Shown here piece by piece: positions 19,891-37,800 of a stretch of DNA of 64,000 bases (the stretch's first letter is position 1; each line of letters opens with the position of its first letter). A program made the position numbers. Source of the DNA: Octopus vulgaris (taxonomy: Eukaryota); contig OX597837.1 in assembly GCA_951406725.2 (NCBI GenBank), positions 25,854,001 to 25,918,000 of the forward strand. The letters are read 5' to 3'.

Positions 19891-22800
19891 ATGTATGTGT
19901 GTATGTATGTATGTGTGTGTGTGTGTGTGTGTTGATATGATTTATACATCTCTTAAACGATAAAGTATTGATTGATTAGATGGAAACGACAGCAGATGTA
20001 TCTAAGAAAATAATGTGTGTGTGTGTGTGTGTACAGAAGTATTGAACATTATTGATGAGAGTTAATTGAAGAGATTCAGTTTGTTTGGAAAAGTTATAGA
20101 TTTTAATTGGCCAGAGCGTAGGATTGAGGTAGAGGCGGATGACAACAACTTTGGCTCATAATTCTAGAAAGGAAGCAAGGTCTACTAAAAGAGAAAGATA
20201 ACTGTCAGACCCATGCCAGTGTGAAACAGGGACGTTAAATGATGATTGAAATGCTTAAGGAATGGTAACTAGATCTCGACACAGCACAAATGGTAAGAAA
20301 TAAATATTAAATTATTTTGCCAAGTCTGTCCGTAAACGAAGTGATCTCAAGATAAGAAATCTTTGAACTTTAATTCATCCGTATCTCTATTTATTATTAT
20401 TATTTATTAATTATTATTATTCTGATCCCCCTAGTCGCCACTCTGTTTACTATTTCAGCCTCGCCTCGCCTCGCCTCGTCTCGTTTTGCATATTCTGTAT
20501 AATTCACTAGTTATCATTATTGATATTTTTAAGATCTATCTCCCTTATAGAAATTGGCTGCCGATTCTTCGCGGGGTTTTTCTTTTTCTCTTCCCTTCTC
20601 TCCCCCTCTTGTTACATTGTCATCTGTCTGGACTCCTCTCTTCCTACCACCCGCCATGGCTATTGCATACTTAAACTAGTAAACTGCCTCATTCTTGATT
20701 CCGAATTCCTTTTGCCAAGTCTGTCCGTAAACGAAGTGATCTCAAGATAAGAAATCTTTGAACTTTAATTCATCCGTATCTCTATTTATTATTATTATTT
20801 ATTAATTATTATTATTCTGATCCCCCTAGTCGCCACTCTGTTTACTATTTCAGCCTCGCCTCGCCTCGCCTCGTCTCGTTTTGCATATTCTGTATAATTC
20901 ACTAGTTATCATTATTGATATTTTTTAAGATCTATCTCCCTTATAGAAATTGGCTGCCGATTCTTCGCGGGGTTTTTCTTTTTCTCTTCCCTTCTCTCCC
21001 CCTCTTGTTACATTGTCGTCTGTCTGGACTCCTCTCTTCCTACCACCCGCCATGGCTATTGCATACTTAAACTAGTAAACTGCCTCATTCTTGATTCCGA
21101 ATTCCTTTTGCCAAGTCTGTCCGTAAACGAAGTGATCTCAAGATAAGAAATCTTTGAACTTTAATTCATCCGTATCTCTATTTATTATTATTATTTATTA
21201 ATTATTATTATTCTGATCCCCCTAGTCGCCACTCTGTTTACTATTTCAGCCTCGCCTCGCCTCGCCTCGTCTCGTTTTGCATATTCTGTATAATTCACTA
21301 GTTATCATTATTGATATTTTTTAAGATCTATCTCCCTTATAGAAATTGGCTGCCGATTCTTCGCGGGGTTTTTCTTTTCTCTTCCCTTCTCTCCCCCTCT
21401 TGTTACATTGTCGTCTGTCTGGACTCCTCTCTTCCTACCACCCGCCATGGCTATTGCATACTTAAACTAGTAAACTGCCTCATTCTTGATTCCGAATTCC
21501 TTTTGCCAAGTCTGTCCGTAAACGAAGTGATCTCAAGATAAGAAATCTTTGAACTTTAATTCATCCGTATCTCTATTTATTATTATTATTTATTAATTAT
21601 TATTATTCTGATCCCCCTAGTCGCCACTCTGTTTACTATTTCAGCCTCGCCTCGCCTCGCCTCGTCTCGTTTTGCATATTCTGTATAATTCACTAGTTAT
21701 CATTATTGATATTTTTTAAGATCTATCTCCCTTATAGAAATTGGCTGCCGATTCTTCGCGGGGTTTTTCTTTTTCTCTTCCCTTCTCTCCCCCTCTTGTT
21801 ACATTGTCGTCTGTCTGGACTCCTCTCTTCCTACCACCCGCCATGGCTATTGCATACTTAAACTAGTAAGCTGCCTCATTCTTGATTCCGAATTCCTTTT
21901 GCCAAGTCTGTCCGTAAACGAAGTGATCTCAAGATAAGAAATCTTTGAACTTTAATTCATCCGTATCTCTATTTATTATTATTATTTATTAATTATTATT
22001 ATTCTGATCCCCCTAGTCGCCACTCTGTTTACTATTTCAGCCTCGCCTCGCCTCGCCTCGTCTCGTTTTGCATATTCTGTATAATTCACTAGTTATCATT
22101 ATTGATATTTTTTAAGATCTATCTCCCTTATAGAAATTGGCTGCCGATTCTTCGCGGGGTTTTTCTTTTCTCTTCCCTTCTCTCCCCCTCTTGTTACATT
22201 GTCGTCTGTCTGGACTCCTCTCTTCCTACCACCCGCCATGGCTATTGCATACTTAAACTAGTAAACTGCCTCATTCTTGATTCCGAATTCCTTTTGCCAA
22301 GTCTGTCCGTAAACGAAGTGATCTCAAGATAAGAAATCTTTGAACTTTAATTCATCCGTATCTCTATTTATTATTATTATTTATTAATTATTATTATTCT
22401 GATCCCCCTAGTCGCCACTCTGTTTACTATTTCAGCCTCGCCTCGCCTCGCCTCGTCTCGTTTTGCATATTCTGTATAATTCACTAGTTATCATTATTGA
22501 TATTTTTTAAGATCTATCTCCCTTATAGAAATTGGCTGCCGATTCTTCGCGGGGTTTTTCTTTTTCTCTTCCCTTCTCTCCCCTCTTGTTACATTGTCGT
22601 CTGTCTGGACTCCTCTCTTCCTACCACCCGCCATGGCTATTGCATACTTAAACTAGTAAACTGCCTCATTCTTGATTCCGAATTCCTTTTGCCAAGTCTG
22701 TCCGTAAACGAAGTGATCTCAAGATAAGAAATCTTTGAACTTTAATTCATCCGTATCTCTATTTATTATTATTATTTATTAATTATTATTATTCTGATCC

Positions 22801-34800: not shown

Positions 34801-37800
34801 AAACTGCCTCATTCTTGATTCCGAATTCCTTTTGCCAAGTCTGTCCGTAAACGAAGTGATCTCAAGATAAGAAATCTTTGAACTTTAATTCATCCGTATC
34901 TCTATTTATTATTATTATTTATTAATTATTATTATTCTGATCCCCCTAGTCGCCACTCTGTTTACTATTTCAGCCTCGCCTCGCCTCGCCTCGTTTTGCA
35001 TATTCTGTATAATTCACTAGTTATCATTATTGATATTTTTTAAGATCTATCTCCCTTATAGAAATTGGCTGCCGATTCTTCGCGGGGTTTTTCTTTTTCT
35101 CTTCCCTTCTCTCCCCCTCTTGTTACATTGTCGTCTGTCTGGACTCCTCTCTTCCTACCACCCGCCATGGCTATTGCATACTTAAACTAGTAAACTGCCT
35201 CATTCTTGATTCCGAATTCCTTTTGCCAAGTCTGTCCGTAAACGAAGTGATCTCAAGATAAGAAATCTTTGAACTTTAATTCATCCGTATCTCTATTTAT
35301 TATTATTATTTATTAATTATTATTATTCTGATCCCCCTAGTCGCCACTCTGTTTACTATTTCAGCCTCGCCTCGCCTCGCCTCGTTTTGCATATTCTGTA
35401 TAATTCACTAGTTATCATTATTGATATTTTTTAAGATCTATCTCCCTTATAGAAATTGGCTGCCGATTCTTCGCGGCGCGCCCGCCCTACCCACCCCCAC
35501 CACCAATACCGGATATCTCTATTTTGCTCCAACTATACCGGATGTCGTTTTTCTCCCACCACCATTATAGGTGTCTACTCTTTGAACCCCCTCTTCAATA
35601 CGCTATTTCACCATGCATTACCCCTCTCTCGATATCCTACGTTCTACTTGCCTAGAACCTGTCCTCTGGACCACCCCTCCCACTGGTGCTCACCCCTCCC
35701 ACTGGTGCTCACCCACTGGTGCTCCCCTATATTTCTGCATCCCCCCACCACCATTATAGGTGTCTACTCTTTGAACCCCCTCTTCAATACGCTATTTCAC
35801 CATGCATTACCCCTCTCTCGATATCCTACGTTCTACTTGCCTAGAACCTGTCCTCTGAACCACCCCTCCCACTGGTGCTCCCCTATATTTCTGCACCCCC
35901 CACCACCATTATAGGTGTCTACTCTTTGAACCCCCTCTTCAATACGCTATTCACCATGCATTACCCCTCTCTCGATATCCTACATTCTACTTGCCTAGAA
36001 CCTGTCCTCTGAACCACCCCTCCCACTGGTGCTCCCCTATATTTCTGCATCCCCCCCCACCACCATAATAGGTGTCTACTCTTTGAACCCCCTCTTCAAT
36101 ACGCTATTTCACCATGCATTACCCCTCTCTCGATATCCTACGTTCTACTTGCCTAGAACCTGTCCCCTGAACCACCCCTCCCACTGGTGCTCTCCTATAT
36201 TTCTGCACCCCCCACCACCATTATAGGTGTCTACTCTTTGAACCCCCTCTTCAATACGCTGCTCCCCTATATTTCTGCACCCCCCACCACCATTATAGGT
36301 GTCTACTCTTTGAACCCCCCTCTTCAATACGCTGCTCCCCTATATTTCTGCACCCCCCACCACCATTATAGGTGTCTACTCTTTGAACCCCCTCTTCAAT
36401 ACGCTATTTCACCATGCATTACCCCTCTCTCGATATCCTACGTTCTACTTGACTAGTACCTGTCCTCTGAACCACCCCTCCCACTGGTGCTCCCCTATAT
36501 TTCTGCACCCCCCCCATAAAAAGCACCATCCGAACGTGGCCGATGCCAGACCCCTCTGGCACCTGTGCAGGTGGCACGTAAAAAACACCCACTACACTCG
36601 CGGAGTGGTTGGCGTTAGGAAGGGCATCCAGCTGTAGAAACACTGCCAGACTAGACTGGAGCCTGGGGCAGTCCCGAGCTCCCCAGACCCCGGTCGAAAC
36701 CGTCCAACCCGTGCTAGCGCGGAAAACGGACGTTAAACGATGATGATGATGATGATGATGAAAGGAGTTGATGCAATGAATTGGAATTTTACTGCATAGG
36801 CGTAGGAGTGACTGTGTGGTAAGTAGTTTGATTACGAATCACATGGTTCCGGGTTCAGTCCCACTACATGGCATGATTAGCTGAACCCAAATGCTCTCAA
36901 AAATTTAAGTAAGAAAACAGGAAAAATAATCCAGAATCCTTGTCTGGAAGGGGATCGATCCCAGAATCTAATCAGTTTGTGCCAGTCACGAGGTTAAACA
37001 TCTCTGAAAGTTTCATCCGAATCCATCCAACGGTTCTTGAGATATCTTGTCCATGGACAAACAAACACAACTGAAAACAATACCTCTGCCTTCGTTAAAG
37101 TGGAGGTAATAATAATGACAAGAGCACTCAGAGAGTGCAAACCTTCACCAAAGCAACACCAAAGTCCTCTCTACGATTATCTGGAGGGGAATTTTAAAAT
37201 GAGAATATCTGAAATAAACTTGACTGATCTCACAAACGAGAATACTAAAAATGAACCCAACCACTCTCAAAAATTAAGTAAAAAAACAAGAAAAATAAAC
37301 CAGAATCCTTGTCTGGAATGGGATTGATCCCAAAATCTGAATCCATCCAGCAGTTCTTGAGATATCTTGTCCACAAACAAATAACCGTGACTGGAAACAA
37401 CACCTCCGCCTTTGTTAAGGTGGAGGTAATAATTTAAGAGTTGTTTTTAATTTTGACACAAGGCCAGCAATTGTATTAGGGGAAGTGGTTAGTTGATTAA
37501 CTCAACTCCCAGTACTTAACTATTGCTTTATTTTATTGACCCACAAGGGATAAAAGGTGAAGTGAACTTTGATGGGATTTTCTTCTTTAGCCTTCATTCC
37601 TCTTGAGGTGATAAAAAATAAACCGGTACTTATTTTATTGATCCTGAGAGTATGAAAGGCAAAGACAACCTTGGTGGAATTTGAACTCTGAATGTAAAGA
37701 TGGACAAAATACCATTAAAAATTTTGCCCACTGTGCTAAAGATTCTGCCAGCTTGCTGCCTTAACCCATTAGCATTTAAACCGACCATATCCGGCCAAAA

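What the first reader, a model, noticed from the sequence alone, without database searches (positions are those of the whole stretch)
20315..35476. 15-kb almost substitution-free 391/396-bp array unrelated to other repeats in the window
Seen: 38+ head-to-tail copies in which I found very few base substitutions (e.g. gtcatc in unit 1, agtaag at ~21870). The unit is CpG-rich and complex, the left edge is sharp, and I see no TSD or TE termini. Inferred: very recent amplification (rolling-circle/eccDNA insertion or strong homogenisation), possibly inside an intron. Consensus polishing could exaggerate the homogeneity.
Basis: partly seen in the sequence, partly recalled or inferred. Interest (0 to 1): 0.7.

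Follow-up and report, generated by a model that had tools for sequence, protein, structure and literature searches.

The report
Young 391-bp satellite array, octopus-like genome
A 15-kb stretch made of 39 nearly identical head-to-tail copies of a non-coding 391/396-base unit is real and looks like a very recently expanded satellite repeat in an octopus-like genome, which is an ordinary kind of feature.

Summary
Window 20315-35476 is 38 full units plus a 256-bp partial unit. The array has three or four point substitutions in 15,162 bp. The other differences are 1-bp indels, mostly in homopolymer runs or the pentamer tract, plus pentamer-count changes in (CCTCG)n.

The array is not uniform. Units 1-12 are a 396-bp variant, units 24-39 a 391-bp variant, and units 13-23 are a messy transition zone.

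The unit is non-coding, matches no RNA family, and is unrelated to the rest of the window and to both flanks. Its CpG observed/expected is 1.1, against 0.46 for the window background.

Both edges are sharp, with no target-site duplication and no terminal inverted repeats. An older, unrelated 155-bp array abuts the right edge.

Best reading: a young satellite-type array expanded or homogenised stepwise in place. A single rolling-circle burst fits the block structure poorly. Copy number and indel variants may be assembly-dependent.

Genome-wide abundance, intron status and catalogue status could not be tested. No eukaryotic genome collection was available.

Interest is low to moderate.

The parts
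20315..35476 (.). Whole array: 38 full units plus a 256-bp partial unit of a 391/396-bp non-coding monomer. The + strand is 66.8% pyrimidine.
20315..25062 (.). Block A: units 1-12, the 396-bp type with tract (CCTCG)4+TCTCG. Seven of the 12 are identical; the others differ by 1-bp homopolymer indels or by single substitutions at 20622 and 21870.
25063..29357 (.). Transition zone: units 13-23 on a 391-bp background. Seven of these 11 units have an aberrant pentamer tract (units 13, 15, 16, 17, 19, 21, 23). All six odd-numbered units are aberrant. Units 17, 19 and 23 share the same 19-nt tract, and unit 21 has (CCTCG)3+TCTCG.
   Evidence: 7 of 11 here against 0 of 28 elsewhere, hypergeometric p = 2e-5
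29358..35476 (.). Block B: units 24-39, the 391-bp type with tract (CCTCG)4. All 16 tracts are identical. Only two 1-bp deletions occur (units 29 and 31). The last unit is cut at unit position 256.
33524..33557 (+). Example copy of the 34-nt pure polypyrimidine tract (unit positions 259-292), which holds mirror repeats of 15, 11 and 11 nt. The array's right end (unit position 256) falls 2 nt before where this tract would begin.
   Evidence: sequence
35477..36513 (.). Second, unrelated and older tandem array: a 250-bp leader, 5 units of 154-158 bp and 2 deletion-derivative units of 72/73 bp. It is 70% pyrimidine on the + strand, with CpG o/e 0.49.
36515..36762 (+). SINE-like dispersed repeat with a (GAT)n tail that abuts the 155-bp array. 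At least 10 other copies lie in the window.
18872..19406 (+). SINE-like repeat of the same family in the same orientation (90% identical over 249 nt to 36515-36762), with 5.4 internal 67-bp repeats. It lies 0.9 kb left of the array.
19709..19932 (.). (TG)n/(TGTA)n microsatellite, 382 bp upstream of the first unit.
19933..20314 (.). Left flank with no similarity to the unit. It contains a weak old SINE-tail fragment at 20200-20246.

Best explanation
This is a young, non-coding satellite-type tandem array in a cephalopod (octopus-like) genome.

A complex 391-bp monomer holds an ATT-rich stretch, a (CCTCG)n pentamer tract and a 34-nt polypyrimidine mirror-repeat tract. I infer that it was multiplied and kept uniform in place by unequal sister-chromatid or homologue exchange, replication slippage and gene conversion. 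Two variant types were each spread over a contiguous block, and the older, mixed units were left in the middle.

It most likely has no cellular function and behaves as a neutral, probably copy-number-variable repeat.

Shown: the tandem structure, the near-absence of substitutions, the block layout, the non-coding nature, the CpG richness, the sharp edges, and the lack of relation to the neighbouring repeats.

Inferred: the exchange mechanism and the age. The age is of the order of 10^4-10^5 years if a substitution rate of 1-5e-9 per site per year is assumed, and that rate is my assumption, not a measurement. Also inferred: that the right end was truncated or joined by a break next to the polypyrimidine tract, and that many 1-bp indels are assembly noise.
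For: Structure: period 391, 38.7 copies, 99% matches. There are 38 full units plus one partial, of which 16 and 7 are letter-identical.

Uniformity: 3 clean substitutions and one ambiguous cluster in 15,162 bp. One of the three (20622) is a CpG>CpA change.

Block layout: 12 of 12 units in block A carry the extra TCTCG, and 16 of 16 tracts in units 24-39 are (CCTCG)4. Aberrant tracts occur in 7 of 11 middle units and in 0 of 28 others. Contiguous variant blocks are what local exchange produces.

Non-coding: no stop-free frame longer than 79 aa in the standard code or 82 aa in the invertebrate mitochondrial code. None of the 8 unit or junction ORFs tested reaches a Pfam cut-off. There are no Rfam matches at gathering score over the window, nor at E<=1 over 34439-36600. 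No tRNA genes were found. RNA folding z-scores are +1.74 and -0.17.

Not TE-like as far as testable: no inverted match between the flanks and no target-site duplication. The sub-terminal inverted-repeat test gave 4 hits against 5.3 expected.

Context: the genome is SINE- and microsatellite-rich. The best named relatives of a reverse-transcriptase fragment are Octopus bimaculoides (78% identity) and O. vulgaris (71%).
Against: The copy number is fractional (38.65), and neither flank resembles the unit. A repeat born by duplication of local single-copy sequence should span a whole number of units, so at least one edge is not original. The array may therefore have arrived from elsewhere or been truncated.

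The most heterogeneous units lie in the middle and the most uniform at both ends. This is the reverse of the usual picture of homogenised centres and degenerate edges. It could instead reflect poor consensus where reads are not anchored to unique flanks.

No read data, second haplotype or other locus could be examined. In-place exchange is therefore inferred from pattern only.

A CpG o/e near 1 in a window at 0.46 is not explained by youth of the amplification alone. The progenitor sequence itself must have been CpG-rich.
Confidence: 0.55

Rival explanations
1. The array was made off the chromosome and then integrated here. In this view it arose by rolling-circle replication of an extrachromosomal circle, or was copied from a larger array of the same satellite elsewhere in the genome.
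For: Both junctions are at arbitrary unit phases (start at unit position 1, end at position 256). The flanks show no homology to the unit: 56-134 of 200 shuffles reach the observed alignment scores. The units are almost free of substitutions. The unit has no relative anywhere else in the 64-kb window. It is far more CpG-rich than its surroundings (1.1 against 0.46), as expected for sequence that came from a different compartment.
Against: A single burst from one circle predicts identical units, or a variant pattern with the period of the circle. Instead there are two long blocks of different variants and a non-periodic mixed middle. Extra in-place steps are therefore needed anyway. No source copy or empty site could be looked for.
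Confidence: 0.2
2. The repeat is real but the picture is largely an assembly product. The copy number, the middle transition zone and the extreme uniformity would then come from collapsing, over-extending or consensus-averaging long reads that do not span 15 kb, possibly mixing two haplotypes with different numbers of 396- and 391-type units.
For: There are about 16 small indel events in 15.2 kb. Most are in T5/T6/C5 runs and in the pentamer tract, which is typical of long-read consensus error. Aberrant tracts are confined to the tract where the two variants differ. They are also confined to units 13-23, just after the 396/391 boundary, which is the part furthest from unique anchors (7 of 11 against 0 of 28, p = 2e-5).
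Against: Singleton substitutions survive near the left edge (20622, 21870) and at 28345, so the consensus was not fully flattened. The window has no gaps. The two variant blocks are coherent and joined once only. Fifteen kb is within ordinary long-read length (general knowledge).
Confidence: 0.15
3. The two consecutive arrays (391 bp and 155 bp) are the central repeats of a non-autonomous Helitron/Helentron-type element (HINE-like), or of another transposon that carries internal tandem repeats, as described for oyster satellite-like repeats.
For: Two unrelated arrays lie in consecutive order. In oyster Cg_HINE elements this occurs 'exceptionally' (PMC7492417, abstract and section 7). A microsatellite lies 382 bp upstream of the first unit, within the 10-500 bp spacing reported there. 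The 155-bp monomer falls in the 140-180 bp range typical of those elements (PMC7492417, section 5).
Against: No sub-terminal inverted repeats were found beyond chance: 4 candidate 11-mers with at most 1 mismatch against a mean of 5.3 in 30 shuffles. No minus-strand match exists between the flanks. The expected right flank is occupied by a SINE-like repeat. Microsatellites are so common in this window (140 TRF rows) that the upstream one is weak evidence. A 391-bp monomer and 39 copies lie outside the oyster range: monomers there are predominantly 140-180 bp, with consensus lengths of 138-181 bp, and the longest array has 29.3 monomers (PMC7492417, section 5).
Confidence: 0.08

Closest known systems
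Classical animal satellite DNA, including euchromatic and dispersed arrays (reviewed in PMC10048060; passages read)
   Same: Head-to-tail non-coding monomers of a few hundred bp, in arrays of tens of units. Within-array uniformity is very high. Variants are spread over neighbouring units. Array ends fall at arbitrary phases.
   Different: Genome-wide abundance, chromosomal position and presence at other loci are unknown here. Identity (about 99.97% at substitution level) and CpG o/e (about 1.1) are at the extreme end. The uniform blocks are at the ends and the mixed units in the middle.
Oyster Cg_HINE (non-autonomous Helentron) central satellite-like repeats (PMC7492417; abstract, sections 5 and 7 read)
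   Same: A mollusc genome. Tandem arrays sit in transposon-rich, non-heterochromatic-looking sequence. Two unrelated arrays can follow one another. A microsatellite lies upstream of the array.
   Different: The defining sub-terminal inverted repeats and the 3' palindrome were not found. The monomer is more than twice as long. The array is longer than the longest oyster example reported (29.3 monomers).
Vertebrate CpG-rich macrosatellites/VNTRs such as D4Z4 and DXZ4 (recalled from general knowledge; no call)
   Same: A CpG-rich unit, very high unit identity and a discrete array. Copy-number variability is probable.
   Different: Those units are kilobases long and often carry a gene or promoter. 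This one is 391 bp, and no ORF or RNA family was detected in it. Single-locus status and polymorphism were not tested here.
Tandem gene or spacer arrays (rDNA intergenic-spacer sub-repeats, 5S, snRNA, tRNA, histone clusters)
   Same: Homogenised, CpG-rich tandem units of a few hundred bp.
   Different: No RNA gene, tRNA or protein domain is in the unit or anywhere nearby.

Membership tests
Satellite DNA (tandem non-coding repeat) | Monomers arranged head to tail in a long array | tested here: met
   38.7 copies, period 391, 99% matches; 39 anchors at regular spacing
Satellite DNA (tandem non-coding repeat) | The monomer encodes no protein or known RNA | tested here: met
   Longest stop-free frame is 79 aa. 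None of the 8 ORFs tested reaches a Pfam cut-off. Rfam gave 0 matches. No tRNA genes. Fold z-scores are +1.74 and -0.17.
Satellite DNA (tandem non-coding repeat) | High copy number in the genome, or presence at several loci | not testable with these tools
   No eukaryotic genome collection was available. There is no other copy in the 64-kb window. There were no hits in the protein collection with a unit ORF, in phage or plasmid records, or in prokaryote contigs.
Satellite DNA (tandem non-coding repeat) | Concerted evolution: variants shared by neighbouring units | tested here: met
   12 contiguous 396-type units and 16 contiguous identical-tract 391-type units
Rolling-circle/eccDNA-derived insertion | Units identical, or variants recurring with the period of the circle | tested here: not met
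   Two different blocks and a non-periodic middle. Only a local every-other-unit pattern appears, in units 13-23.
Rolling-circle/eccDNA-derived insertion | Junctions at arbitrary unit phase with flanks unrelated to the unit | tested here: met
   The array starts at unit position 1 and ends at position 256. Flank alignments are no better than shuffles.
Rolling-circle/eccDNA-derived insertion | An empty-site allele or orthologue, and a source copy elsewhere | not testable with these tools
   No access to the rest of the genome, reads or related genomes
Helentron/HINE-borne central repeats | 11-12 bp sub-terminal inverted repeats in the left and right flanks | tested here: not met
   4 candidate 11-mers (at most 1 mismatch) between 19399-19720 and 36495-37800, against a mean of 5.3 in 30 shuffles. 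No minus-strand blastn match between the flanks.
Helentron/HINE-borne central repeats | A microsatellite in the left flank, 10-500 bp before the first repeat | tested here: inconclusive
   (TG/TGTA)n at 19709-19932 lies 382 bp upstream, but microsatellites are abundant throughout the window.
Helentron/HINE-borne central repeats | A conserved ~60-bp right flank with a palindrome after the last repeat | tested here: inconclusive
   The sequence after the last repeat is a SINE-like copy. Conservation across copies cannot be judged from one locus.
Tandem RNA/protein gene cluster or rDNA spacer | A gene, or a flanking rRNA gene, present | tested here: not met
   0 Rfam matches in 64 kb. No tRNA genes. 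Of 245 ORFs outside the arrays, only the reverse-transcriptase fragment reaches a Pfam cut-off.
Macrosatellite (D4Z4/DXZ4 type; features recalled) | Kilobase-scale unit | tested here: not met
   The unit is 391/396 bp.
Macrosatellite (D4Z4/DXZ4 type; features recalled) | CpG-rich unit | tested here: met
   CpG o/e is 1.11-1.15, against a background of 0.46.

The most novel reading that the evidence does not exclude
The array could be a satellite caught at birth. In this reading it is a single-locus, lineage- or even population-specific repeat that arose within roughly the last 10^5 years from an unmethylated, CpG-island-like piece of ordinary non-coding DNA. Expansion and the right-hand breakpoint would be driven by replication stalling at the unit's 34-nt polypyrimidine mirror-repeat (triplex-prone) tract. 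This would give a natural system for watching how a new satellite family starts in a clade whose satellites are essentially undescribed.
Probability: 0.12. Interest if true: 0.55.

Novelty: new member of a known kind. Interest (0 to 1): 0.27.

Why it matters
Cephalopod satellite DNA appears to be almost undescribed. Five word searches of the open literature listed no paper on a cephalopod satellite by title or abstract start, and a search for a 36-nt string of the unit found none.

A 15-kb, 99.97%-identical, CpG-rich array with a clear two-block history could serve as a marker for very recent repeat turnover. It could also be a probable copy-number polymorphism, and a test case for assembly accuracy in large, repeat-rich octopus genomes.

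In kind, however, it is an ordinary young satellite array. Nothing in the sequence points to a new mechanism or a cellular function.

Tried and rejected
Coding or RNA gene in the unit: rejected. all gave nothing.

Mitochondrial origin: the strong T>A and C>G skew suggested it. There is no through-reading frame in code 5 (maximum 82 aa) and no Pfam hit. A direct comparison with an octopus mitochondrial genome was not possible.

Relation to the neighbouring 155-bp array or to either flank: rejected.

Relation to any other repeat in the window: rejected. Only low-complexity matches were found.

Internal dimer or sub-repeat structure in the unit: none beyond the two microsatellite tracts.

Transposon termini: no target-site duplication and no inverted flank matches. 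HINE sub-terminal repeats were not above chance.

Exogenous origin: there was no match in phage records, plasmid records or prokaryote contigs by a 36-nt exact pattern.

Presence in other public assemblies, probed through spurious ORFs: the 79-aa unit ORF and the 153-aa ORF of the junction plus 155-bp array gave no hits. This is weak evidence only, since such ORFs lack start codons and repeats are usually masked before gene calling.

Exons near the array: among 245 ORFs, only a retrotransposon reverse-transcriptase fragment passes Pfam, plus one sub-threshold PHD-finger match inside a 26-bp tandem repeat that I take for chance.

Literature:
- Searches listed no cephalopod satellite paper by title or abstract start.
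- In PMC13282606, the Octopus vulgaris repeat annotation, a term search found 'satellite' 0 times and 'tandem' twice (once in the methods, once in the reference list). Its supplementary repeat library was not opened and might contain this unit.
- A literal 36-nt string of the unit occurs in no held paper.

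
Full report
**1. The observation**

Tandem Repeats Finder reports a single array at 20315-35476 with period 391, 38.7 copies, 99% matches and score 29592. Cutting the array at a 17-nt anchor gives 39 units, 38 complete and a last one of 256 bp. Units 1-12 are 395/396 bp and units 13-38 are 386-395 bp, mostly 391. Among the 38 complete units there are 16 distinct sequences; 16 units are one identical 391-mer and 7 are one identical 396-mer. The window holds no N.

A MAFFT alignment of the units has 24 variable columns out of 401. Against the majority consensus there are three unambiguous point substitutions:
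- 28345 C>T.

There is also a 3-nt alignment-ambiguous cluster at 26385-26387 in unit 16. Every other difference is an indel. One class is the 5-bp TCTCG pentamer that marks units 1-12. Another is gain or loss within the (CCTCG)n tract. The rest are 1-bp length changes in T6, T5 and C5 runs, plus a single-C deletion in unit 31.

GAATTC occurs once per unit.

**2. Properties of the unit**

The unit is 38% G+C and strongly strand-asymmetric. The + strand is 66.8% pyrimidine, against 49% in the 5 kb on either side.

CpG observed/expected is 1.11 (391 type) and 1.15 (396 type), or 0.93 if the pentamer tract is removed. The window outside the two arrays has 0.46. Only 2.2% of 949 sliding 391-bp windows outside reach 1.1. 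'CpG-rich and complex' is confirmed.

The unit has no internal dimeric structure. Its only sub-repeats are an ATT-rich stretch and the pentamer tract.

It contains a 34-nt uninterrupted polypyrimidine tract at unit positions 259-292, with mirror repeats of 15, 11 and 11 nt.

It does not encode anything detectable:
- The longest stop-free frame is 79 aa in the standard code and 82 aa in the invertebrate mitochondrial code.
- None of the 8 ORFs tested reaches a Pfam cut-off.
- Rfam gives no match at gathering score in the 64 kb, and none at E<=1 in 34439-36600.
- ARAGORN finds no tRNA.
- Neither strand folds better than shuffles, with z-scores of +1.74 and -0.17.

**3. Edges and surroundings**

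blastn with word size 7 of the unit against the window with the array masked finds only ATT-microsatellite and other low-complexity matches. 'Unrelated to other repeats in the window' is therefore confirmed.

Local alignments of the left flank (20015-20314), the right flank (35477-35711) and a 155-bp neighbour unit against a unit dimer score no better than shuffles on either strand. Between 56 and 134 of 200 shuffles reach the observed score. Both edges are sharp.

No k-mer longer than 5 nt is shared between the last 30 nt of the left flank and the first 30 nt after either array. blastn finds no minus-strand match between 17001-20314 and 35477-39500. There is thus no target-site duplication and no terminal inverted repeat.

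The array starts at unit position 1 and ends at unit position 256. That is 2 nt before the point where the polypyrimidine tract would start.

Immediately to the right, at 35477-36513, lies a second, unrelated array. It has a 250-bp leader, five units of 154-158 bp and two 72/73-bp deletion derivatives. TRF gives 85% matches at period 155. The array is 70% pyrimidine on the same strand, but its CpG o/e is 0.49. It is clearly older.

That array abuts a SINE-like repeat at 36515-36762. This repeat has at least ten other copies in the window, including one in the same orientation at 19151-19398.

To the left, a (TG/TGTA)n microsatellite at 19709-19932 lies 382 bp before the first unit.

**4. Organism and gene context**

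A reverse-transcriptase fragment at 43714-44112 (minus strand; Pfam RVT_1, E = 3.8e-13) has as its best named relatives proteins of Octopus bimaculoides (78% identity) and Octopus vulgaris (71%). With the SINE- and microsatellite-rich texture, the window is most likely from an octopod or other cephalopod. This is an inference from one transposon protein.

Of 245 ORFs of at least 55 aa outside the arrays with residue entropy above 3.6 (out of 377 ORFs of at least 55 aa in the window; the other 132 were inside the arrays or of low complexity), only the RT fragment passes Pfam. One sub-threshold PHD match lies inside a 26-bp tandem repeat. No exon is visible, so 'inside an intron' cannot be judged.

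**5. Internal history of the array**

The array is not uniform. It has three parts.
- Units 1-12 all carry (CCTCG)4+TCTCG (12 of 12).
- Units 24-39 all carry (CCTCG)4 (16 of 16).
- In units 13-23, seven of 11 tracts are aberrant (units 13, 15, 16, 17, 19, 21, 23), against 0 of 28 elsewhere (hypergeometric p = 2e-5).

In the middle part all six odd-numbered units are aberrant and four of five even-numbered ones are normal. Units 17, 19 and 23 share one 19-nt tract that lacks the first base of the fourth pentamer. Unit 21 has a T at that very position. There are two readings of this.
- A real short run of dimers alternates a third variant, (CCTCG)3+TCTCG, with the 391 type.
- A consensus artefact arose at a position where reads disagree.

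I cannot choose between them without reads.

About 16 small indel events in 15.2 kb, mostly in homopolymers and the tract, look like residual long-read consensus error. They should not be counted as divergence.

**6. Mechanism**

Contiguous blocks of different variants are the expected product of local unequal exchange, slippage and conversion. A single rolling-circle burst from one circle would give identical units, or a pattern with the period of the circle. Neither is seen across the array.

The fractional copy number and the complete lack of flank homology mean that at least one edge is not the original boundary of a local duplication. Either the array, or its seed, came from elsewhere, or an edge was cut by a later break. 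The position of the right edge, 2 nt from a triplex-prone tract, is suggestive of a break, but it is a single coincidence. About 4-10% of positions are that close to the tract, depending on how adjacency is defined (my arithmetic).

My preferred account is a satellite-type array expanded stepwise in place, with recent spread of one variant at each end. The origin of the seed is undetermined.

With 3-4 substitutions in 15,162 bp (2.0-2.6e-4 per site) and an assumed rate of 1-5e-9 per site per year, the last homogenisation is of the order of 10^4-10^5 years old. The rate is an assumption of mine.

The high CpG content cannot be produced by amplification. It says that the progenitor was itself CpG-rich, that is, unmethylated DNA or a young mobile sequence.

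**7. Comparison with what is known**

The closest kind is ordinary animal satellite DNA, including arrays outside heterochromatin (PMC10048060, passages read).

The nearest described mollusc system is the oyster Cg_HINE family. There, satellite-like arrays, exceptionally two unrelated arrays in a row, are the central repeats of non-autonomous Helentrons. They are flanked by sub-terminal inverted repeats, a left-flank microsatellite and a right-flank palindrome (PMC7492417, abstract and sections 5 and 7).

Here the two consecutive arrays and an upstream microsatellite are present. The sub-terminal repeats are not above chance: 4 candidates against 5.3 expected. The right flank is a SINE, and the monomer and array are much larger than in oyster. 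I therefore do not file the locus there.

Gene or spacer arrays are excluded. The resemblance to vertebrate CpG-rich macrosatellites is recalled from general knowledge. It fails on unit size.

**8. Novelty and what stayed unchecked**

Five word searches of the open literature listed no paper on a cephalopod satellite by title or abstract start, and a search for a 36-nt string of the unit found none. In the recent Octopus vulgaris repeat annotation, a term search found the word 'satellite' 0 times. Its supplementary library was not opened and could contain the unit.

I had no access to the rest of this genome, to reads, to other cephalopod assemblies, or to Dfam/Repbase.

The negative searches in phage, plasmid and prokaryote collections and in the protein collection with unit-derived ORFs say little about eukaryotic genomes.

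**9. Verdict**

The feature is real and striking in its uniformity, but it is of a well-known kind. I classify it as a new member of a known kind. The assembly caveat on copy number and on the middle zone stands. Interest is 0.27.

Noticed in passing
35477-36513: A second, unrelated C-rich tandem array directly abuts the 391-bp array. It has 5 units of 154-158 bp, 2 deletion-derivative units of 72/73 bp and a 250-bp leader. It is 70% pyrimidine on the same strand as the 391-bp unit, but CpG-depleted (o/e 0.49) and more diverged. Two unrelated arrays with the same strand bias side by side are unexplained.
   Followed up: partly
35474-35478, and unit positions 256-292 (e.g. 33521-33557): The array's right end falls 2 nt before the point where the unit's 34-nt pure polypyrimidine tract would begin. 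That tract holds mirror repeats of 15, 11 and 11 nt. This may mean the break or junction formed at a triplex-prone site.
   Followed up: partly
25063-29357 (units 13-23): Every odd-numbered unit in this stretch has an aberrant (CCTCG)n tract, while four of five even-numbered ones are normal. Units 17, 19 and 23 share the same 19-nt tract. This is either a short dimeric higher-order repeat or a consensus artefact next to the 396/391 boundary.
   Followed up: partly
3374-4463, 18872-19225, 61099-61836; also 9941-10089, 12736-12955, 47987-48136, 63205-63369: A dispersed SINE-like family carries an internal tandem region whose unit (26/52/63/67 bp) and copy number vary greatly between copies. The range runs from about 2 copies to 41.7 copies of 26 bp. 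This suggests frequent in-element repeat expansion in this genome.
   Followed up: no
13365-14329, 49282-49646, 51624-52447, 57697-58072: Another repeat family occurs as 184-188-bp and 436-437-bp tandem duplicates (about 2-2.5 copies, 87-96% matches) at four or more places in the window.
   Followed up: no
43714-44112 (-): This is a fragment of a non-LTR retrotransposon reverse transcriptase (Pfam RVT_1, E = 3.8e-13). Its best named relatives are from Octopus bimaculoides (78% identity) and O. vulgaris (71%). It is the only protein-domain signal in the window.
   Followed up: yes
44767-45180, 46549-46753, 58654-59215: Very long trinucleotide microsatellites are present: (GAT)138, (CTA)68 and (ATT)187.
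   Followed up: no
49685-50468 (-): Two adjoining stop-free frames of 146 and 120 aa have ordinary amino-acid composition but no Pfam match. They may be a decayed mobile-element gene.
   Followed up: partly
19151-19398 and 36515-36762: Two copies of the same SINE-like repeat, 90% identical and in the same orientation, bracket the whole segment that holds both arrays. They lie about 17 kb apart. Direct repeats like these could mediate excision or unequal exchange of the segment.
   Followed up: no
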